The notes below the pieces were generated by a model. It was not told the DNA's origin. It ran no database searches and was given only the letters and a program-made list of their open reading frames with translations. From an uncultured Methanosarcinales archaeon (GTDB lineage: Archaea; Halobacteriota; Methanosarcinia; Methanotrichales; Methanotrichaceae), in NCBI GenBank assembly GCA_963843555.1, contig CAWJKV010000003.1, positions 64,001 to 128,000 of the forward strand: a stretch of 64,000 bases of DNA. The letters run 5' to 3'. Below, piece by piece: positions 42,143-54,805 of this stretch. The position numbers were made by a program, and so were the translations under genes. The first letter of the stretch is position 1; each line of letters begins with the position of its first letter.

Positions 42143-42952
42143 ATGAAAGTTGCACTCAAGCTCGCCTATCTGGGCGATAACTACTACGGCTTCCAGCGCC
42201 AGCCGGATCTGGTTACTGTGGATAGTGAAGTCAGAAAAGCGTTGACAAAGATCGGCGTCATCCACGGCGACTTCTGCTATGCGGGCAGGACGGACAGGGG
42301 CGTCTCGGCTCTGGGCCAGGTCATCGACTTTTGGATCGATGAGGAAAAAGAGAAATTGACCCGGCCCAGGTGCGTCAACGGCCGGCTGCCCCGCGATATC
42401 TGGACCTGGGCCTGGGCACGGGCGCCTATAGGTTTCAGCGCCCGCTGGAATGCTCAGTGGCGGGAGTACCGCTACCTCCTCTGGCATCCGGGCCTTGACA
42501 CGGAGTCGATGCGCGGCGCTGCTGCGCTCCTATTGGGCGAGCACGATTTCCGGAACTTCTCCTCTGCCAAGGTAGGTACTGTAAAGTCGGTGCAAAAGTT
42601 GGAGATCTCTGAGCAGAATGGCCTGTTCACCTTCGACATTCGGGCGGATGGCTTTCTCTGGAATATGGTGCGCAAGATCGTGGGCGCCCTGGAGAAGGTG
42701 GGCTCGGACCAGAAGGATATGAGATGGTTCAAAGATCTTCTCCGGCCGGAGCTCAACTATGGCGCGCCCACCGCCCCAGCCGAAGGCCTCATCCTCATGG
42801 AGGTTGGCTATAAGGGGCTGGAGTGGCAGGTGGACGGGTACTCCCGGGCACGGGCGGCCAAGGGACTGGCAGCGACGGTGCAGAGCAGGATGGCGGGGGC
42901 GAATGTGGCGAGAGTGATGGAGAGGGCGATGGAATTGGATGCGGGGGATTAG
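42143..42952 (+). CDS. truA: tRNA pseudouridine(38-40) synthase
   Basis: YLG..YYGFQ.QP, AGRTDRGVSA, GEHDF.NF, FLWNMVRKIVG and APAEGLIL motifs. Confidence 0.95.
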   Translation: MKVALKLAYLGDNYYGFQRQPDLVTVDSEVRKALTKIGVIHGDFCYAGRTDRGVSALGQVIDFWIDEEKEKLTRPRCVNGRLPRDIWTWAWARAPIGFSARWNAQWREYRYLLWHPGLDTESMRGAAALLLGEHDFRNFSSAKVGTVKSVQKLEISEQNGLFTFDIRADGFLWNMVRKIVGALEKVGSDQKDMRWFKDLLRPELNYGAPTAPAEGLILMEVGYKGLEWQVDGYSRARAAKGLAATVQSRMAGANVARVMERAMELDAGD

Positions 42953-43280
42953 GAACCTGGGTATGAGGTTCAATTAGGATCAGCTTTTTCTGCAGGGATC
43001 TCCTGGGGCGGATAGCAGTTCTCAACCATGCGGGCTTCAATCTCGCGAAGCATTTCAGGACTATTTTCAGATGATGCATCTTACACGTACTAAATTATAT
43101 ATTTAGGAAATAGGCCACAGAACTTCTTTGAGGGCTCAGGCCAAAACCTGCAAGTTATGCATAGCGCCTTATGCAACCATCCAAGTGGCCTAAAACTGGC
43201 CTTCAAGCCGATGGTGTGGGTGCCCCTGAGCCGCCCTCTTTAGCTTTTCTGGCCCGCTCCTGGGCCTCCTCATCCATGAA

Positions 43281-44530: not shown

Positions 44531-44682
44531 AGCCTGCCGAGGGCTTCATGGATATAGGCTGCAGGGTGCCGGACTCGCATGTGGGCAAGCGCTCGCGGGC
44601 GCGAGCGGCCAAGGGACTGGCAGCGACGGTGCAGAGCAGGATGGCGGGGGCGAATGTGGCCAGGGAGATAGAGAGGGCAATG
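44531..44682 (+). repeat. Diverged copy R2 of the truA 3' end
   Basis: Contains GCGGCCAAGGGACTGGCAGCGACGGTGCAGAGCAGGATGGCGGGGGCGAATGTGGC, identical to truA at about 42854-42909. Confidence 0.92.
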
Positions 44683-44719
44683 AGGCAGTGTGACGAAACC
44701 GCGAGAACAGAGTGTCGCT

Positions 44720-45445: not shown

Positions 45446-45627
45446 AGCCTGCCGAGGCCCCCATCCTCATGGATGCAGGCCACCAGGGGCTGGACTCGCA
45501 TGTGCACGAGCCCTCCCGGGCGCGGGCGGCCAGGGGGCTGGCCAGCGACGGTGCAGAGCAGGATGGCGGGGGCGAACGTGGCCCGGGAGATCGGGCGGGC
45601 GATGGGATTGGATGCGGGGGATTAGGA
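45446..45627 (+). repeat. Diverged copy R3 of the truA 3' end
   Basis: Runs from CCTGCCGAGG..CATCCTCATGGA through CAGCGACGGTGCAGAGCAGGATGGCGGGGGCGAA to TTGGATGCGGGGGATTAGGA, which includes the truA stop. Confidence 0.92.
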
Positions 45628-46426: not shown

Positions 46427-46477
46427 GGACTCTCACGATCTTTGGTGATGGCGATTTAATCTATAGGATATGGTCTT

Positions 46478-46628
46478 ATGGGCTGCCCGAGTCTGGACTC
46501 ACATGTGCACGAGCCCTCACGGGCGCGGGCGCCGGGGGGTCTGGCGGCAACGGTGCAGAGCAGGATGGCCGGGGCGAATGTGGCCGGGAGATGGAGAAGG
46601 CGATGGGATTGGATGCGGGGGATTAGGA
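46478..46628 (+). repeat. Diverged copy R4 of the truA 3' end
   Basis: CTGGCGGCAACGGTGCAGAGCAGGATGGCCGGGGCGAATGTGGC ... TTGGATGCGGGGGATTAGGAA. Confidence 0.92.
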
Positions 46629-47065
46629 AAGCCGCGTTATCGGCACATTTTCTTTCTGATAAGTCATAAGAATACAAATATCACACTTTATCGCGGTTGG
46701 ATATGATAACGGTTCTCAATTATACCTTTGTTTACAATAATTTAAACGCCTATACCGCATACAAAATACATACAATACAACTTTTTTTTGATAGCTACCA
46801 GTTATTATTATCCGTTATTATTAGTGCAACTCGAGTTTTAACTTCTGCATTTTTGATTCATAAATGTAATAAGATATCAGTAGAACTATCCTTAATTCTT
46901 AGGAACAGTTAAATACTATTATGAAAGATCCTTGATTGTAAAATTGGATGAAATTTGCCTAAGTGATTTGCATATTGGATGAAACTCTCTAATATAGTCA
47001 CTATTGGATTATCCAATATGGCATATACTTAAGACAAAATTCGGCCACATCAAGGAGGGAGAATA

Positions 47066-47569
47066 ACGAACAAATTAATAAAATTATATTTGACCATCGC
47101 TTTGGTCGCGATGGTATCGCTGGTAGCATCAGCATCTGCATCGTCTTTGACTCTGTCCGCGACTATGCCTCAAATTCTCTCGGTTCAATTTCCTGCATCT
47201 AATAACTTCGGGGATTTGATTCCGGGTAATACAGTCACGGCGGGTAACCAGGTTCATATCGAAGGCAACTGCTATTGGGCTTTATCTGTCTATGCCCAGG
47301 ATGACGGATACGGACACCACGGATATCTGACGCAGCAACACCCATCATCTATGCATGACTGGATACGTAATCCTGTATCTATGTACATCCCTACGTATGG
47401 GATAGGTCCAACGTCTCTTGAGTATTATTATAATTATAGCCCAATATCGGTTACGAGTGGCTTTGGTCCCATGGATATATACTATCAGCTTTCAACGATG
47501 TCTTCAGGAAGCGAAGATTCCAGATATCCATACACCATTACACTGGATTTCGTCCTAACTGCACAATAA
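47066..47569 (+). CDS. Secreted small beta-rich protein, candidate major pilin (WxL/Csu-like)
   Basis: Signal peptide ending ASASA. Mature N-terminus SSLTLSATMPQILSV, internal WALSV, C-terminal YTITLDFVL. GGAGG RBS upstream. Confidence 0.65.
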   Translation, partial: TNKLIKLYLTIALVAMVSLVASASASSLTLSATMPQILSVQFPASNNFGDLIPGNTVTAGNQVHIEGNCYWALSVYAQDDGYGHHGYLTQQHPSSMHDWIRNPVSMYIPTYGIGPTSLEYYYNYSPISVTSGFGPMDIYYQLSTMSSGSEDSRYPYTITLDFVLTAQ

Positions 47570-47601
47570 GGCCAGCTGATGATTAAGTGATATGGACAAT
47601 C

Positions 47602-47645
47602 GAGCTGAGCCATTCCTGTATAAGGAAGCTCGGCTCAATTTTTTT
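47602..47645 (+). terminator. Hairpin plus T-tract after the candidate pilin gene
   Basis: GAGCTGAGC..TTCCT-gtata-AGGAA-GCTCGGCTC followed by TTTTTTT. Confidence 0.6.
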
Positions 47646-47959
47646 AAACACGATAATACTTGAAACCCTCAATAATCTATGCTATTTCACTTAAGATTTT
47701 GCAACTCAGAAAATTCTTGCACTATCAAGAGCGATGGTGGTTCAATTGAGAATTAGGAGAGATTTGAACTTCTCTTTACCATAAACTTATTAAAGTAGAA
47801 AGCAATATCTAATATAGCCTTCAAGGGTTAAATAAATGGTGAAAAGACGATATGGCATTAATCGATCGTGTTAAGCTGAATATATTACTACTAAAATGGC
47901 TGTAATTCAGATCGATTTAGCATATAAATTAGAAATTTATTTGAGAGGTGTATTAGAAG

Positions 47960-48778
47960 ATGATATTCAAAAGCGTGGTAGTAGCGCCTGCATTGAGTCT
48001 AGCTCTGATTTTGTTGGCTGTTATGCCTGCTTGTGCAAACCTTACACTGGTTGGAGCGAAATATGAGGCTAATGTTATTCCAGGACAGCATATTGAAGAT
48101 GAAATAGAATTAAACCTCGGGGCTGAAGATCTCCCTGTGGATATAATGACGGAAATTCTTGGTTTAGGCCAGAGTCCTAATGGAGTATATACCATGATCG
48201 AATCTGATCAGGACGATGGACTCTATTCAGCCAAGCCTTTCTTAAATATATCACCCTCTAATTTCCATCTCAATCCTGGTGAATCAAAAAAGATGCTGAT
48301 CAGCGGTGACGTGCCCTTGGACATTGGAGATGGGTCAAGATACGCTCTGGCTAGCATTCGAGGGATATCTAAAGGAAGCGGACCCGTAGGGGTATCACTG
48401 GTGCTTAATGTTCCTATCCTGCTCAATATCACTGGTTCTAAACTCTCCAAAACAGCCGATATTGTGGGCCTGGACACGAGCAAGCCGGTCAATAATAATT
48501 GGAAGAACGCAACGCTTACGCTAAAGAACACCGGAAATACCAATTATGCGACCATAGTTAAGGCTGTCATGAAAGATGGTGAAGGAAATGTCATTGCCAA
48601 TTCTACAACCATCAATCAAGTTCTCCCGCCAATATTACCTGGAAAGTTGAGGGAATATGCGCTTCAGCTCAAATCCAACCGGACAATTGAGCCTGGAAAT
48701 TATGCTCTGAATGCAACAGCCTACTTGGAAGACGGGACTGTTCTAGCCAGCAAAGAAACGGCATTTGATGTTGTTTAA
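47960..48778 (+). CDS. Secreted two-Ig-domain protein resembling pilus chaperones / DUF916 WxL-interacting proteins
   Basis: Signal peptide. ISPSNFHLNPGESKKM in domain 1; LTLKNTGN, ILPG..R and PGNY in domain 2. Confidence 0.65.
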   Translation: MIFKSVVVAPALSLALILLAVMPACANLTLVGAKYEANVIPGQHIEDEIELNLGAEDLPVDIMTEILGLGQSPNGVYTMIESDQDDGLYSAKPFLNISPSNFHLNPGESKKMLISGDVPLDIGDGSRYALASIRGISKGSGPVGVSLVLNVPILLNITGSKLSKTADIVGLDTSKPVNNNWKNATLTLKNTGNTNYATIVKAVMKDGEGNVIANSTTINQVLPPILPGKLREYALQLKSNRTIEPGNYALNATAYLEDGTVLASKETAFDVV

Positions 48779-48796
48779 TTTATACCATCGGGAGCG

Positions 48797-48975
48797 CTGA
48801 GGGTCACGAATACTCCGATCTTTAGGTGGGGATGAAGTGAACCCTCGCACAATTTTTCAGGCTCCATCAATCAATGAACCGTTAATCGTGGAATAAAGGG
48901 GATCCGAGCAATAGGACTCGATGATTTCTGGATTCCGGAAAACGGCGGCGTGCGGCCCGAAGCATACCCTGTCTT
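48797..48975. mobile_element. Probable IS200/IS605-family end remnant or structured non-coding element, with no transposase
   Basis: GAGGGTCAC-gaatACTCCGATCTTTAGGTGGGGATGAA-GTGAACCCTC nested hairpin. It resembles IS200/IS605 subterminal hairpins; this match is from recall, not a search. Confidence 0.5.
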
Positions 48976-49138
48976 TCAATGCATTAGTTATATATATGAT
49001 AAGTAACTTACTCATATTATTATGTGTGTTTCAGTCTTGCCAGTTATTAAAACCAACTCAATTAAATTTTGCTGTACTTCTTTAATTTATTATATAGCGG
49101 AATGGAGAAAGATCAGAATATAATCACCGAAAAACATT

Positions 49139-49747
49139 TTGATAGTATTGCATGGCAAAGGAAAAGGGGAAAAAATGGAGTACATGAAGGATCCAATAGA
49201 CTGGAAGGCTTCACATGGACTCAAATCATTTTTTTTCCTTATTATTATAATAATTCTCTTAACTGAAATCTGCTTTGCAGAACAAACACCAATCATTGAG
49301 GCCGCACCTGGGCAGCCTATCGGAAATGTATTGACTTTAGGCGGGGATTCTGGCGGGATTACGATTGGTGTATCTCCCATTATCTCAGATTGGATCCTGG
49401 ATCCAACTAAACCAATTTGCACCAGGGAAACCACCCTTGAGATAGATTGCAGAGGACCCTGGAGGATCACTGTCTCAGCAGATGTACCAGCTCAAGGTCA
49501 TCTGGCTGAATATGATACATCCAGCTCTGCCTATGTCCCTGACGGAATAAGGCTGAAAGACTCTATGATCGTCATTGCCAAAGGAGGAAACAGCGTCGAC
49601 CTCTCTCATGGGGGAGTGCTTCTGGACGGTGATGGAAGAGCTACTGTTCTATTGACTTTCATCCAGAAGGCATCCTTGGATGATAAATCTCTGCCCTCTG
49701 GCAATATTTATCAAATTAATATAATCTTTAAAGGATTAAAACTCTGA
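49139..49747 (+). CDS. Secreted small beta-rich protein, candidate minor pilin (start probably later than the ORF start)
   Basis: Hydrophobic signal FFFLIIIIILLTEICFA. WRITVSAD...GHL and C-terminal YQINIIF parallel the 47066 protein. Confidence 0.6.
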   Translation: MIVLHGKGKGEKMEYMKDPIDWKASHGLKSFFFLIIIIILLTEICFAEQTPIIEAAPGQPIGNVLTLGGDSGGITIGVSPIISDWILDPTKPICTRETTLEIDCRGPWRITVSADVPAQGHLAEYDTSSSAYVPDGIRLKDSMIVIAKGGNSVDLSHGGVLLDGDGRATVLLTFIQKASLDDKSLPSGNIYQINIIFKGLKL

Positions 49748-49751
49748 GGGC

Positions 49752-52700
49752 ATGATGATCCTTCTATCTAAAACGTTGGCCGGAATCTATCGCTCGCGGT
49801 ACTACTACAAATCGGCCCCGAAATGGATCTCTGCAAAGGGACAGGGAGGACTCAGCAAATGGGGAAAGCATGTATCCTCCTGGATTCAAGCCTTCATGGT
49901 CCTATCCGTATTATTTGCTCTCGCTGAAGCATCAGGTCATGATACTGACCTTTATACTATCCAAATTGACCTTCCCGCAGAGATCATCCATGATGTGATG
50001 ATCATTGATACTCTTCCAAGTGGGCTGGTATATAGTGCAGGCAGCTTGAAGGTGACAGGCGCTGCTACCAATATGTCGGAGACTATAGCCTATCCAAATG
50101 ATGGCAGTCAGCCTGTGACCATAACCTGGAGCTTTGGCGATCTGGACAATTCTGCAGACGAAGACATTTTGATTCAATTTCAGGTTTTGGTAGCTGATAC
50201 GGATCAGAACAGGGATGGAATGATTTTAGCGCCAAGCGTAGCGCTTCTCCAATGGAGGGATCAAGAGGGGTTTGCTCAATCCAGCAGCACCAAATCAACT
50301 GCCGTTAGGATCATTGAGCCCGACCTCCAGATAAAGCAGCGATTCATGCCTCCATCTGCAAAGATCGGGGAGACTGTGACCTGCACCATTTCTCTTTGCC
50401 ACATACCCAGCAGCCACTCAGATGCCTTCGATGCGGAGGTTGTAGAAAACCTTCCTCAAGGATTGATTTACACACCCGGTTCAATGGAGATAGTCGCCGG
50501 GCCCAAAGGGAGGTGTGATGATTCTAATAGCCAAGAGCTACGATGGCACTTTGATAAGATAGATATGTCTTGGGCAAAGACTACCGAGATCCAGCTTAGA
50601 TATAAAGCAACTGTTGATAAAGGAGCTAAGCAGGGTTCAACGCTAAACGGCACTGCTGATCTATCCTGGGCTAGCAGCGTGGGAATCTATCCCGAAAAGA
50701 GAACCTATTTCGAGACGGCTAGTGGAAGCATAACTATCGCTTCCACGCCACCGGCATTCGTCATAACCGTAGCGGATTATCCCAATCCCATTCGCCCCGG
50801 CGATGAACTAACTTATGCAATTAATTACAAAAATATAGGAGGCTATGCTCAAGGCGCCGCAATTCAGGCCACCTACGATCCCAAAGTCGCCTTCGTCTCC
50901 GCCGTCCCCGCGCCCGACCAGGGCTCGGACAGCCAGTGGACGCTGGGCGACCTCATGAACGGGGCTTCGGGCACAATCGAGGTTAAGTTGGGCACCGGAT
51001 CATCTTTAGCGGACGGAACCTTGCTCACCAGTTCGGCCAGGATCGCCGACCAGGACGGCGTTTCTGCCCAGGATACTGCCATCACCAGGGTCATGACCAC
51101 CGCTCCAAACCTCCAGATCGAGAAGGCGGCCTCCGATCGGTTCATCCGGCCGGGAGGCGCTCTCAACTACACCATAACCTACGGCAACTCCGGAAATACG
51201 GAGGCTGAAAATGTCACCATAACCGATCTCGTTGACGGCAACCTTGACTTTGATCCTGCCGACGCCACCCCAAGAGCTAGCAAGATCTGGAGGGATGCAG
51301 AGGGGACGCATCTGTGGTGGAACGCGAGCATCCTAAAATCCGAGAGGCTCTCGCCGGGCGGTTCAGGCAAAATAGATATTCGCGTAGGCCTGCCCCCAGT
51401 TCCCGAACATCCCCGGTTCGACTGGGTTTACAACAACTACAAGATCGATTCAGACCTGAGTGAGGGCAAGTTCAAGATGCTGGAGACTGCAGTTATCCAC
51501 TCCCTCTATGTGAGGAAGATGGCGGAGGCGCAGGCCTATTTTGCGAATGAGATGGTTAACTACACCATTATTTACGGAAACGACCTGGCACTTGATGCCG
51601 ATAGAGCGGTGGTGATGGATGTTCTCCCTGATCCGGAATTTATGGAGTTCATCGAGGCAAATCCGCAGCCAACCGCCATAAAGAATAACGTTTTGGTTTG
51701 GGCACTGGGCACAATTCCTCCCAAAAGCAGTGGAACCATCAAGGTCTATCTGAGAATCAAAGAGAACCATTCTGATATCCGATTCAGATCCACCCAATCC
51801 GTCTCCGGCCAGGGCTACGTCCATTTTGACCAGAGGCTGGACACTGCCCAAAAGCCCAACAGCCTGACCAATTTCGCCAACATTACCGCCAGCTACATGG
51901 GTATGCCCGAATCCGATGAAAGCTCTGCAACTATAATGCTTGCTGATGCCCTGGGAACGGCAGTAAGCATCGTAGGCCACGGCAGCGGAACATATTCCAG
52001 GGATGAGGAGTCCCAGCTCTACTCCAAGGACAAGACAATTCAGATGAAGACCAGCCTCAAAGAGAGATACCGGGCATCCACTTTCTCTCTGCCCCGGGGC
52101 AGGTCCATAAACTACGACTCCAAATGGTCTGAGGTCCAGAGCGCCGAGAACCGGGTGACCGGGGCCTCTATGATTGAGCGTTATACGTATGCCAGCAGAA
52201 TCGACCGAAATAGTACCTTGAGCCTGGACAAGAACGGCTCTATCCTTGCCTCAGATACATCCTTCGAGGGAGCGGGCCATGTAGGACTGACGAAGCGCTC
52301 CAACGCAAACCTTCCATATTCATTTCAGGGAGCTTTTACCTACGAGTCGCAGGAGGACTACCTGGGCAGCTTCAAGGTCTCCACCAAATTTGATGAGTAC
52401 GGCAAGAATGCCAAATCCAGCCGCTCTGCCTCAGGAGTGGGTTATGCTGCTTCCGACAAACGCATCGGCACGAGCCAGAGAAGCTACGAATCTGGAACAG
52501 GCAACTATCAGGTAGAGGATCGCATTGAAACTCAAACCAACTACCTGGCCAAATACATAAACGCCTCATATGGATCCCTGAAATACAACTACACTCAGGA
52601 TTTTAGAGTACCTCTTTCCCAGAAATGGAGCGAAGGCATGTGGTCCAGATCGGGCACTCTGCCCGTCAAGGATTCGAATAGCTCTGAGCCAGCCAGTTTC

Positions 52701-53852
52701 ATTGGCGAGAAGTTCTCTCAGGCAGATTATCTCAAGAAGAACACTACAGCTAAAGGCCTTGACGAGATGGATACCGAGGCAGAGTTCTCAGGACGTGCTC
52801 AGTTCAAATCGCAATATGTCAAGTCAAAGGATCAGACCAGAGATGAGCTCAGCCTCTATGATGAATATGTTGGAAAATACAAAATAAACCGCAAGTTAAC
52901 GCTCAATGGGGCTGCAACATTCAATGAACCGCACCTTAGCATAAGTAAAGTTGGCAGCATGGATCCTGCGGGAGGCAGCTTCATCAACTACGTCCTGACT
53001 GTGGTAAATGATGGCAACCGCGCTCTAGGGCCGGTCTATGTCCTGGATCTCTTCCCACCTGGCACAGAGTATGTCTATTCCTCTTTGAGACCCTCAGAGC
53101 TCGCCTCCAACTCCGCCCAATGGACGTTGGTCAACCTGGGCATCGGATCAAGTTCTACCATCGAGCTGAAGCTCAATGCCACGGAGGATCAGGATAATCT
53201 AGTAAATCGAGTGCAAGCCCGCGGTGGCTATAACGATGAGTGGGTAAGCGCTCAGAATTATTCCGCCCTGCAGCTCAATTGGCTCTCCTGTTGTCCCCGG
53301 CAGTTGCGAGCTATCAAGACTGGCTACGTAGATGCCAATGACAGCACGCTGGTGCATTATAGAATTGCACTCAAGAACCGGGAGAGTTACATCATGGCGG
53401 CCACCATCAACGATGACTTGCCAGGTGGAATGAAGTTCATCAACTCCACAATGCAGCCGTCGGACTGCAGCTCCGGCCATGTGAGATGGAATGCCATAGA
53501 CCTGAAACCTAATGAGGTCAAAGTCATCGATTACTTGGCCAGAGCTCTTCAAAACGGTGTGTTCGTGAACCAGGCCCAGATAGAGACCACATCGTTCAAT
53601 GGATCTGATAGTGCATTTGCGGATGTCTCCTGTCAGGTGCAGATCAGGAGCAGCTCCAACTCTGGATCGGATTCGAACTGGAAGCCTCCTGCATGCTTTG
53701 GCCTCAACTGCACCCAGCAGGAATTTGAGAAGGACTGGAACGCTTGCGTAAGCTGCGCCGCTCAGGAACCAGAGACAGTACCCCAGGCGGGTCAGACCTG
53801 TCCAGCCTGCTCAGGAGGGAGCGGAGACGACGAAGGATATGATATTCCTTGA
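49752..53852 (+). CDS. Large cell-surface protein with multiple DUF11/Ig-like repeats and a Cys-rich tail
   Basis: Repeated PG..L.YTI.Y.N.G...A.NV.I.D.LP.G..F motifs, hydrophobic signal-like segment near the N-terminus, C-terminal CxxxxC/CxxC/CxxC. Confidence 0.85.
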   Translation: MMILLSKTLAGIYRSRYYYKSAPKWISAKGQGGLSKWGKHVSSWIQAFMVLSVLFALAEASGHDTDLYTIQIDLPAEIIHDVMIIDTLPSGLVYSAGSLKVTGAATNMSETIAYPNDGSQPVTITWSFGDLDNSADEDILIQFQVLVADTDQNRDGMILAPSVALLQWRDQEGFAQSSSTKSTAVRIIEPDLQIKQRFMPPSAKIGETVTCTISLCHIPSSHSDAFDAEVVENLPQGLIYTPGSMEIVAGPKGRCDDSNSQELRWHFDKIDMSWAKTTEIQLRYKATVDKGAKQGSTLNGTADLSWASSVGIYPEKRTYFETASGSITIASTPPAFVITVADYPNPIRPGDELTYAINYKNIGGYAQGAAIQATYDPKVAFVSAVPAPDQGSDSQWTLGDLMNGASGTIEVKLGTGSSLADGTLLTSSARIADQDGVSAQDTAITRVMTTAPNLQIEKAASDRFIRPGGALNYTITYGNSGNTEAENVTITDLVDGNLDFDPADATPRASKIWRDAEGTHLWWNASILKSERLSPGGSGKIDIRVGLPPVPEHPRFDWVYNNYKIDSDLSEGKFKMLETAVIHSLYVRKMAEAQAYFANEMVNYTIIYGNDLALDADRAVVMDVLPDPEFMEFIEANPQPTAIKNNVLVWALGTIPPKSSGTIKVYLRIKENHSDIRFRSTQSVSGQGYVHFDQRLDTAQKPNSLTNFANITASYMGMPESDESSATIMLADALGTAVSIVGHGSGTYSRDEESQLYSKDKTIQMKTSLKERYRASTFSLPRGRSINYDSKWSEVQSAENRVTGASMIERYTYASRIDRNSTLSLDKNGSILASDTSFEGAGHVGLTKRSNANLPYSFQGAFTYESQEDYLGSFKVSTKFDEYGKNAKSSRSASGVGYAASDKRIGTSQRSYESGTGNYQVEDRIETQTNYLAKYINASYGSLKYNYTQDFRVPLSQKWSEGMWSRSGTLPVKDSNSSEPASFIGEKFSQADYLKKNTTAKGLDEMDTEAEFSGRAQFKSQYVKSKDQTRDELSLYDEYVGKYKINRKLTLNGAATFNEPHLSISKVGSMDPAGGSFINYVLTVVNDGNRALGPVYVLDLFPPGTEYVYSSLRPSELASNSAQWTLVNLGIGSSSTIELKLNATEDQDNLVNRVQARGGYNDEWVSAQNYSALQLNWLSCCPRQLRAIKTGYVDANDSTLVHYRIALKNRESYIMAATINDDLPGGMKFINSTMQPSDCSSGHVRWNAIDLKPNEVKVIDYLARALQNGVFVNQAQIETTSFNGSDSAFADVSCQVQIRSSSNSGSDSNWKPPACFGLNCTQQEFEKDWNACVSCAAQEPETVPQAGQTCPACSGGSGDDEGYDIP

Positions 53853-54070: not shown

Positions 54071-54805
54071 ATGAAAAACGAATCCATCCGACTCATATGC
54101 CTCCTCTGTTTATTCCTGGTGATACTGGCCTCTCTGGGATGCATCCAGCCTGTAGAGCAGCCCGGGCCTATGCAGAATGAATCTCGTTACGTACCTTTGG
54201 GGGATGCCAAATCAGCGAATGCCAGAGTGGCTATGGGAGTGGGAATGCTCACCCTGGAAGGCGGGGCCAAGAACTTGATGGATGCAAACTTCATCTACAA
54301 CATAGCTTCCTGGAAGCCTGATGTCAGCTATTTTGTCTCCAATGGGGTGGGAGATCTGCAGGTTCATCAGCCATCTGGCACAGGAGCATATCTAAATGGT
54401 GTTGTTCGCAATGATTGGAATCTCCGGCTCAACGATGAAGTTCCCACAAACCTCATCCTGGAACTAGGGGCAGGAGACGGCGCCCTGCGTTTTGGAGGAC
54501 TCTCTTTGACAGGACTCGACGTGAAGTCGGGAGCTGGCACGCTAGCAATGGACTTCGACGGAATCTGGAAGAATGATCTCAACATAAGTATAGAGTCTGG
54601 AGTTGGCGAACTGACCATCGTGCTGCCCCAGAATACCGGAGCCATAGTTGAAGTCAGCCAGGGAATAGGCACTACTGAGGTGGGCAGCGGCCTGAAGGCC
54701 AATGGCGACTATTATAGCAATGACGCCTATGGAAAAACCGGCACGACACTGAGGATCAAAGTTACGTCTGGAGTGGGCAACACCAAACTCAGCCTTGCGT
54801 CTTGA
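54071..54805 (+). CDS. Putative lipoprotein with beta-solenoid repeats (toast-rack/DUF2154-like)
   Basis: Lipobox-like ASLGC and repeated G(V/A)G.L.L units. Confidence 0.7.
   Translation: MKNESIRLICLLCLFLVILASLGCIQPVEQPGPMQNESRYVPLGDAKSANARVAMGVGMLTLEGGAKNLMDANFIYNIASWKPDVSYFVSNGVGDLQVHQPSGTGAYLNGVVRNDWNLRLNDEVPTNLILELGAGDGALRFGGLSLTGLDVKSGAGTLAMDFDGIWKNDLNISIESGVGELTIVLPQNTGAIVEVSQGIGTTEVGSGLKANGDYYSNDAYGKTGTTLRIKVTSGVGNTKLSLAS

What the first reader, a model, noticed from the sequence alone, without database searches (positions are those of the whole stretch)
47066..53852. Candidate usher-less chaperone/pilin fibre system in a methanogen
Seen: four co-oriented genes for secreted-looking proteins. 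They are a small beta-rich protein with its own RBS and terminator, a two-domain protein with P..F.L.PGE and L.N.GN motifs, a second small protein sharing W.(I/L).V.A...G.L and a terminal Y.I.(I/L).F pattern, and a 1366-aa DUF11-repeat protein. Known: PapD-like chaperones and the DUF916 proteins of Firmicute WxL (csc) clusters carry such motifs. Donor-strand pilins have an alternating-hydrophobic N-terminal extension, like SSLTLSATM here. Inference: this is a major pilin + chaperone + minor pilin + adhesin cluster building a non-type-IV archaeal filament. No usher, sortase or prepilin peptidase is present in the locus. It could be relevant to granule adhesion or syntrophic contact.
Basis: inference. 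Interest (0 to 1): 0.75.

Follow-up and report, generated by a model that had tools for sequence, protein, structure and literature searches.

The report
Archaeal chaperone-built pilus with adaptor-linked tip
A methane-producing archaeon carries a conserved four-gene cassette whose products are predicted to fold as two strand-swapping pilus subunits and a pilus chaperone, next to a large surface protein that lacks its first strand, so it likely builds a thin surface fibre by a chaperone-assisted route that my literature searches found described only in bacteria.

Summary
Confirmed and extended. Protein B (272 aa) is predicted to fold like the chaperone of Gram-positive WxL pili (Z 17.4). Protein A is predicted to be a six-stranded pilin body with a loose N-terminal strand, like FimG or CsuA/B. 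A and C belong to one family. Chaperone and pilins co-occur: 31 genomes have both, 3 have one, 71 have neither, and 60 of 62 chaperone genes have a pilin within 3 kb. C carries a distinct N-terminal cap and travels with the DUF11 protein D. D's first domain lacks its first strand (0 of 28 have it, against 19 of 19 controls), so C likely donates a strand to D, making D the tip. In this family the chaperone has no membrane anchor and no anchor subunit was found. Usher-less chaperone pili were published in 2026 for Bacillota and CPR bacteria, not archaea in my searches. The scan noted the membrane-anchored form in other methanogens before. This is a candidate for the unexplained pili of Methanocrinis alkalitolerans (untested). 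New variant of a known kind.

The parts
47054..47058 (+). Ribosome-binding site GGAGG, 7 nt before an ACG codon that is the likely start of gene A
   Evidence: sequence; ACG kept in G085 while the neighbouring ATA is not; homologue P0023 has Met here
47066..47569 (+). Gene A: predicted shaft pilin; signal peptide 47066-47140, mature protein 142 aa
   Evidence: model pLDDT 90; fold matches FimG, CsuA/B, CsuE, FimA, CfaB, TasA
47141..47173 (+). N-terminal extension of A, predicted donor strand, pattern hydrophobic-x-(A/G)-x-hydrophobic-P
   Evidence: not in a strand, pLDDT 65; in 61 aligned pilins position 5 is large hydrophobic in 93%, position 7 is A/G in 51 of 61, position 9 hydrophobic in 88%
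47602..47645 (+). Hairpin plus T run after gene A, likely terminator or attenuator giving A its own short transcript
   Evidence: z -5.1
47960..48778 (+). Gene B: two-domain WxLIP/PapD-like chaperone with signal peptide and no C-terminal membrane helix
   Evidence: model pLDDT 96; WxLIP 9i25 Z 17.4, 233 aligned, rmsd 5.3; no membrane tail
48386..48412 (+). Residues 143-151 of B: candidate chaperone donor strand
   Evidence: positions 143, 145, 149, 151 large hydrophobic in 82-90% of 141 homologues, position 147 only 48%; residues 137-147 are outside a strand in the monomer model
49175..49747 (+). Gene C: second pilin-family protein with capped N-terminal extension (AAPGQ-x-V-x-G-x-I-x-L type); predicted adaptor to D
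   Evidence: same family as A; cap P10/G11 invariant in 14 aligned C-type proteins; linked to D
49752..53852 (+). Gene D: secreted 1366-aa protein with seven DUF11-type domains, a ~320-aa unassigned central region and a Cys-rich acidic tail; no membrane helix; predicted tip protein
   Evidence: starts 4 nt after the stop of C
49932..50321 (+). First domain of D (D1): DUF11-type domain lacking its first strand; candidate acceptor groove
   Evidence: aligns to domain 2 from residue 18 onward (hhalign 97.8%); preceding strand absent in 28 of 28 C-linked D proteins, present in 19 of 19 internal repeats of other DUF11 proteins

Best explanation
[quoted passage not shown] All four proteins would leave the cell through Sec (inferred from signal peptides). 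A and C would each fold as an Ig-like body missing its last strand (predicted for A; inferred for C from family membership). B would lend its 143-151 strand to that groove until the N-terminal strand of the next subunit displaces it (inferred from WxLIP and PapD). C's capped strand would complete the truncated first domain of D, placing D at the far end (inferred from gene linkage and the missing strand; probability about 0.55). A's own RBS and terminator would give the excess of A needed for a shaft (inferred). How the fibre is held on the cell is open: B is soluble and no anchor subunit was found, so the base may stay capped by B and be trapped under the S-layer or sheath, or the fibre may be shed into the matrix.
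For: Fold of B: the top three Foldseek hits are WxLIP chains, followed by FimC, CfaA, FaeE, CsuC; VIA Z 17.4 over 233 residues against at most 12.7 for CU chaperones; 15 of 141 B homologues match Pfam WxLIP_PGBD and 4 match WxLIP_HBD at E<=0.01. Fold of A: all 14 Foldseek hits at E<=0.001 are donor-strand fibre subunits (TasA, FimA/FimG, CfaB, CsuA/B, CfaE); A residues 10-142 align to N-terminally truncated FimG 13-144, Z 8.4, rmsd 3.3, 115 aligned. Co-occurrence in 105 family genomes: B in 33, pilins in 32, 31 shared. 60 of 62 B genes have a pilin-domain gene within 3 kb. Relatives show the full WxL plan: 11 large proteins carrying a pilin domain, membrane-anchored B in 22 of 23 complete sequences, and 11 membrane-tailed proteins that begin with a donor-like motif but lack a pilin body. 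C-D link: five pilins lying far from any B gene, fetched as an out-of-sample test, were all capped C-type and all directly upstream of a D1-bearing D (L104-L108); a capped pilin has D1 within 5 kb in 25 of 28 cases and D1 has a capped pilin in 25 of 29. Precedent: Elr pilus (10.64898/2026.10.17.759780) and Pam pilus (PMC13278184).
Against: No filament, binding or expression was observed. The pilin fold scores are modest: Z 8.2-8.6, where the tool says unrelated models typically reach 7-8, and PapD-like ASH domains and glycosidase Ig domains score 7.0-7.7. No WxL chain appeared among A's listed matches, and A and C match no Pfam or NCBIfam family. The pilin profile was built from neighbours of B, so adjacency counts are partly circular, and related genomes are not independent. 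Two B homologues have no pilin nearby (L085, L090). No anchor or terminator was found in the family loci or the genome, unlike Elr and Pam. DUF11 repeats were judged not to be the aggregation determinant in Methanothermobacter CaT2 (PMC6759345, passages), and D1-like domains also occur in genomes lacking the cassette (70 of 105 genomes). D is split into two genes in some loci (L031, L035, L040).
Confidence: 0.75

Rival explanations
1. The subunits polymerise by strand exchange, but the product is a shed matrix or sheath-associated fibre (TasA-like), not a cell-attached pilus; B acts as nucleator or permanent cap.
For: No membrane anchor on B (36 of 37 full-length family copies) and no anchor gene. 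TasA is A's first Foldseek hit. Archaeal bundling pili and cannulae are close in fold (Z 7.6-7.8), and cannulae assemble without a chaperone (10.1101/2024.12.30.630787, passages).
Against: B is closest to a proven fold-completing chaperone type. Relatives keep membrane-tailed donor proteins. An anchor may be encoded elsewhere in an 82% complete genome.
Confidence: 0.14
2. The proteins form only a short complex that displays D (a few pilin domains held by B), like the older static-platform model for WxL clusters, with no long filament.
For: C and D move as a unit apart from A and B in several genomes. There is no expression evidence that A is abundant.
Against: A has both a donor-type N-terminus and an acceptor-type body, the recipe for open-ended polymers, and its own terminator. 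B plus A-type pilin clusters exist with no C or D nearby. The platform model was overturned for Elr.
Confidence: 0.08
3. D is not the tip: it is an independent secreted protein, or the base element, and its first domain is completed by another partner (B, or its own chain).
For: No C-D binding test was possible. In 3 loci an uncapped pilin is the direct neighbour of D, and 4 of 29 D1 genes had no regex-capped pilin within 5 kb. C's cap resembles the A'-turn-B motif of Ig domains more than the missing Lys strand.
Against: 19 of 28 capped pilins lie within 400 bp of a D1 gene against 3 of 61 uncapped ones. The five stand-alone C-D pairs. D has no membrane tail to act as a base.
Confidence: 0.3
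4. These are unrelated Ig-fold surface or S-layer accessory proteins, and the pilus resemblance is fold convergence.
For: Ig folds are common and A's Z-scores are near the tool's background. B's second domain alone matches glycosidase Ig domains at Z 13-14.
Against: Both proteins independently match the two partners of one system, over both domains for B. The linkage holds across two domains of life, with large pilin-domain proteins and membrane-tailed donor proteins in the same loci.
Confidence: 0.04

Closest known systems
Elr / WxL pilus of Enterococcus faecalis and other Bacillota (ElrE = WxLIP DUF916-DUF3324 chaperone; ElrD/C WxL pilins; ElrA tip; ElrB LPxTG terminator); bioRxiv 10.64898/2026.10.17.759780 (read: abstract, passages, sections 8, 15, 52); PDB 9i25, 9i1y
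   Same: [quoted passage not shown] B's best structural match is WxLIP. Relatives of this cassette also have large pilin-domain proteins and membrane-tailed donor proteins.
   Different: Archaeal host (the preprint, using Pfam cut-offs, calls the system confined to Bacillota). Pilins are ~140 aa, match no WxL profile and resemble CU pilins more closely. Chaperone has no membrane helix. No LPxTG protein or sortase. The candidate tip has a truncated DUF11 domain, not a pilin domain.
Pam pilus of CPR bacteria (PamA/B pilins, PamC/D chaperones, PamT tip, PamR anchor); PMC13278184 (read: abstract, passages)
   Same: Usher-less donor-strand pilus with PapD/FimC-like chaperones in a cell without an outer membrane.
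   Different: Pam pilins have two domains, the chaperones are membrane-anchored, there is an RbmA-like anchor, and the paper reports them as CPR-specific. No sequence comparison with Pam proteins was run.
Chaperone-usher pili (archaic Csu, type 1 Fim, class 5 CFA/I)
   Same: A's closest folds are CsuE, CsuA/B and FimG; B has the two-domain PapD-like plan; the chaperone is soluble, as periplasmic CU chaperones are.
   Different: No usher, no outer membrane, and PapD_N matches B only at E 0.22.
Archaeal donor-strand filaments: cannulae (10.1101/2024.12.30.630787, passages), tafi (PMC11821415, abstract, passages, section 17), bundling pili AbpA and thread (search listings and PDB hits only)
   Same: Archaeal non-type-IV fibres joined by strand donation; A matches AbpA, cannula and thread subunits at Z 6.4-7.8.
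   Different: Cannulae assemble without a chaperone; tafi clusters carry a signal peptidase and DUF5305 protein rather than a PapD-like protein. Here a dedicated chaperone-fold gene is the core of the cluster.

Membership tests
WxL/Elr pilus | Chaperone carrying PF06030 and PF11797 above gathering thresholds | tested here: not met
   Window B matches neither at E<=1; 15 and 4 of 141 homologues match at E<=0.01, scores against cut-off not shown
WxL/Elr pilus | Chaperone with the WxLIP two-domain fold | tested here: met
   Z 17.4, 233 aligned, rmsd 5.3 to 9i25_C on a predicted model
WxL/Elr pilus | Pilin with WxL domain PF13731 | tested here: not met
   No match in A, C or the genome; Atlas gave only a weak lead, a cluster with 20% WxL at score 0.91
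WxL/Elr pilus | Chaperone anchored by a C-terminal membrane helix | tested here: not met
   Absent in window B and 36 of 37 full-length family copies; present in 22 of 23 copies from other families and Chloroflexota
WxL/Elr pilus | LPxTG terminator and sortase (optional in the preprint) | tested here: not met
   No sortase in G000, 82% complete; no membrane-tailed donor protein in family loci except outlier L045
WxL/Elr pilus | Chaperone within 10 kb of small pilin genes | tested here: met
   60 of 62 within 3 kb
Donor-strand pili in general | Subunit = N-terminal alternating-hydrophobic extension plus Ig-like body ending at strand F | tested here: met
   Predicted model and alignments; groove not inspected directly
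Donor-strand pili in general | Polymerisation by strand exchange; chaperone-subunit binding | not testable with these tools
Chaperone-usher pili | Outer-membrane usher PF00577 | tested here: not met
   None in G000; control E. coli positive
Chaperone-usher pili | PapD_N chaperone profile above cut-off | tested here: not met
   12 bits against cut-off 23
Pam pilus (CPR) | Two-domain pilins and membrane-anchored chaperones | tested here: not met
   A is single-domain; B has no membrane helix
Type IV pili / archaella | Class III signal peptide pilin and prepilin peptidase | tested here: not met
   No PF01478 or PF07790 match in G000; A and C have Sec-type leaders
Tafi / DUF1102 clusters | Dedicated signal peptidase and DUF5305 gene in the cluster, DUF1102 subunits | tested here: not met
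   No such gene or Pfam match in the locus

The most novel reading that the evidence does not exclude
This is the gene set behind the thin, ~10 um, non-type-IV pili seen on Methanotrichaceae cells, and it is an archaeal chaperone-guided pilus that has lost both membrane anchors, works with a soluble chaperone under the sheath, and captures a giant DUF11 protein as its tip by inserting an adaptor pilin's strand into a deliberately truncated DUF11 domain, a tip-docking mode not seen in CU, WxL or Pam pili.
Probability: 0.3. Interest if true: 0.82.

Novelty: new variant of a known kind. Interest (0 to 1): 0.66.

Why it matters
The archaeal donor-strand filaments covered in the papers I read are described without a fold-completing chaperone, and the October 2026 WxL pilus preprint calls its chaperone-pilin system confined to Bacillota. 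A WxLIP-fold chaperone with its own pilins in about a third of the genomes of this methanogen family (33 of 105), in other families of the phylum and in some Chloroflexota widens that picture. It also makes a stated open question testable: Methanocrinis alkalitolerans M04Ac shows ~10 um thin pili for which the authors found no pilin genes and proposed an unknown archaeal filament type (PMC10598746, passages). Acetate-using methanogens are scaffold organisms of anaerobic granules (general knowledge), so a named adhesive fibre would be a handle on aggregation. The truncated DUF11 acceptor would give DUF11 a new role.

Tried and rejected
No RNA run was listed for the stretch. Sequence searches of PDB with B, A and D gave nothing significant. 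No WxL chain appeared in A's structure lists; that is inconclusive. The Atlas gave no usable hit for D's central region; a lectin profile matched it only far below cut-off. An intermolecular isopeptide link between C and D1 was considered and dropped: C's extension has no conserved Lys. The downstream lipoprotein gene (54071-54805, toast-rack family) was rejected as a member: no such gene was noticed beside the cassette in the fetched neighbourhoods (part was cut from view). A terminator profile from other families found nothing in G000 (best E 2.4); a motif scan hit 1 of 21 membrane-tailed secreted ORFs, an S-layer-like protein, judged chance. A tree of 62 B sequences groups the unanchored copies in one clade but with support 0.37, so no order of anchor loss or direction of transfer is claimed. 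The many weak B matches in the phylum search (120 of 401 at E<=0.001) were not counted as members; only 24 reach E<1e-50. Whether strain M04Ac carries the cassette was not tested. Literature searches for a published archaeal or Methanotrichaceae version listed none; the library lacks most subscription papers, and bioRxiv supplements were not seen.
Full report
Host and observation. The window is G000:C3:64001-128000 of a 2.68 Mb, 82% complete genome. It has mcrA and several acetyl-CoA synthetase genes, two above cut-off and adjacent. From this and my own knowledge I infer the family Methanotrichaceae; no tool named it. The four ORFs are as described. A, B and C are single-copy and match no Pfam or NCBIfam family above cut-off; D has 7 DUF11 stretches. 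A has an RBS, a probable ACG start kept in G085 and a strong hairpin with a T run. C and D are 4 nt apart. No usher, WxL domain, sortase, prepilin peptidase or archaeal type IV pilin was found in the genome, with positive controls in each search.

B is a WxLIP-like chaperone by fold. A 141-sequence alignment gave a model with pLDDT 96 and two beta domains. Foldseek ranked three WxLIP chains first, then FimC, CfaA, FaeE and CsuC. VIA-align gave WxLIP Z 17.4 (233 aligned, rmsd 5.3) and 16.7, glycosidase Ig domains 13-14 on the second domain only, and CU chaperones at most 12.7. Residues 143-151 alternate in hydrophobicity across the family, except position 147 at 48%, and 137-147 lie outside a strand in the monomer model, as expected of a free donor segment (inference). 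The family is large: 370 clusters at E<1e-30 and 7555 at E<0.001.

A and C are pilin-like. Iterating a profile from A over 20 fetched neighbourhoods gathered 52 small secreted proteins, 51 of them before window C entered the seed. The A model (61 sequences, pLDDT 90) has a confident core and an unpaired N-terminus. All 14 Foldseek hits at E<=0.001 are donor-strand fibre subunits. In the unbiased search of 48,161 chains the top rows were CsuE (Z 8.5), CsuA/B (8.2), TLP-1b and archaeal bundling pilin (7.8). A 10-142 overlays truncated FimG 13-144, so A ends where CU pilins end. These Z values are only a little above the tool's stated background, so the case rests on the consistent class of hits, the N-terminal pattern and gene context.

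Gene context. Among 105 genomes of the family, B is in 33 (E<=0.001) and pilins in 32 (E<=1e-5). Comparing the lists, 31 have both, two have only partial or broken B matches (G062, G101), one has only a partial pilin match (G033), and 71 have neither. Of 62 B genes in fetched regions (duplicate locus L100 dropped), 60 have a pilin-domain gene within 3 kb. The profile came from B neighbours and genomes are related, so this shows linkage, not a p-value. In a phylum sample of 401, 24 genomes match B at E<1e-50, 19 outside the family. Named records include Dehalococcoidia, Chloroflexia and Methanocella; 4 of 301 genomes in the phylum of G489 match at E<=1e-25. Those relatives show the whole WxL plan: small pilins, 11 large proteins carrying a pilin domain (Pfam CARDB, DUF3344, PKD and FG-GAP in the two scanned), chaperones with a membrane tail (22 of 23 complete sequences; one just under threshold; one truncated and two duplicate rows dropped), and 11 hand-picked membrane-tailed proteins starting with a donor-like motif but no pilin body.

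What is particular here. In the window's family 36 of 37 full-length B proteins lack the membrane tail (the exception, L045, has the other cluster type), and no terminator was found in family loci or in G000. Instead there is the C-D pair. C-type pilins carry a cap, xAPG(Q/E), before a V-x-G-x-I-x-L strand. In the first 20 loci the cap and D went together. As an out-of-sample test I fetched pilins lying far from any B: five on long contigs were all capped and all directly upstream of D (L104-L108), a sixth on a short contig likewise (L112), and the uncapped ones (L110, L111) had no D beside them. Over all 40 family loci, 25 of 28 capped pilins have D1 within 5 kb (two misses are contig ends) and 25 of 29 D1 genes have a capped pilin (two misses have variant caps); 19 of 28 capped against 3 of 61 uncapped pilins are within 400 bp of D. 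D's first domain aligns to its second from residue 18 onward and starts a few residues after the signal peptide in 28 of 28 cases with a visible N-terminus (one keeps a short turn motif; one truncated row dropped). The same domain inside other DUF11 proteins is preceded by the missing strand in 19 of 19 cases. A conserved missing strand next to a dedicated donor-strand protein is best read as an acceptor site, which would put D at the tip. This was not modelled.

Mechanism. Shown: genes, motifs, linkage, absence of usher and anchors in what was searched, truncation of D1. Predicted: folds of A and B. Inferred: Sec export, chaperone complementation, strand exchange, A as shaft, C as adaptor, D as tip, adhesion. 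D's binding function is unsupported: its central region has no assigned family, and DUF11 repeats were not the aggregation determinant in Methanothermobacter CaT2 (PMC6759345, passages).

Comparison with what is known. [quoted passage not shown] The Pam pilus is an usher-less CPR system with anchored chaperones. Cannulae are chaperone-free and tafi clusters differ in gene content. This cassette works like Elr but fails its sequence-level membership tests, so I file it as a variant, not a member. Eight searches listed no paper on an archaeal version. Earlier notes of this scan describe the membrane-anchored form in other methanogens and archaea; look-ups by place and by the sequence of C found nothing. 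Those notes are not independent support. A 2023 paper reports thin ~10 um pili of unknown genetic basis on Methanocrinis alkalitolerans M04Ac (PMC10598746, passages); this cassette is an obvious candidate, but I did not test that genome.

Mobility. The cassette follows the fourth copy of the 3' end of truA in a run of small cargo genes. In G085 the same block, 78-87% identical, sits among genes that lie on other contigs in G000. With its patchy distribution this suggests a mobile accessory module.

Verdict. Real, coherent and probably a pilus (0.75). New variant of a known kind. Interest 0.66: the general principle was published in bacteria this year and the anchored archaeal form was noted before in this scan, but the anchor-less form, the C-D module and the link to an unexplained methanogen filament are new and testable.

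Noticed in passing
window 42795-42954, 44546-44705, 45453-45627, 46470-46629: Four decaying copies (64-89% identity) of the 3' end of truA separate small cargo blocks: a 224-aa ORF, a PIN toxin with a 68-aa partner, a UPF0175-DUF3368 pair, then the pilus cassette. Looks like repeated integration at the truA end. A fifth, weaker copy is on contig C5.
   Followed up: partly
window 47066: Gene A probably starts at ACG: it is 7 nt after GGAGG, kept in G085, read through as Thr in P0028, and aligns with Met in P0023.
   Followed up: partly
L076-L093: Other methanogen families carry the anchored version: membrane-tailed chaperone, large pilin-domain proteins of 394-1230 aa and membrane-tailed proteins starting with a donor-like strand followed by PKD or Fn3-like domains.
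   Followed up: partly
L085:8043-9032, L090:8174-9178: Two membrane-tailed chaperone homologues with no pilin gene within 3 kb.
   Followed up: no
L045 (G091:C53): A genome of the window's family carries a cluster of the anchored type, suggesting transfer from another family or a binning error.
   Followed up: no
window 51951-52916; G000 C3:229200-230963, C9:32552-34836, C17:23831-24769; L030:683-1339: D's ~320-aa central beta-rich region has no family and recurs in other secreted proteins of the genome and as small stand-alone genes.
   Followed up: partly
L125, L126, L129, L133: Giant DUF11 proteins in open frames of 2886-5826 aa with near-identical ~286-aa repeats whose domains keep the Lys strand.
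   Followed up: no
L137:3845-9530 (Deinococcus plasmid NZ_CP140100.1): A weak B homologue (25% identity, E 9e-4) lies in a run of hypothetical genes ending in a large carboxypeptidase-regulatory-domain protein; possibly another pilus-like cluster.
   Followed up: no
window 54071-54805: Lipoprotein with toast-rack (DUF2154-type) domain directly downstream of D; not treated as part of the cassette.
   Followed up: partly
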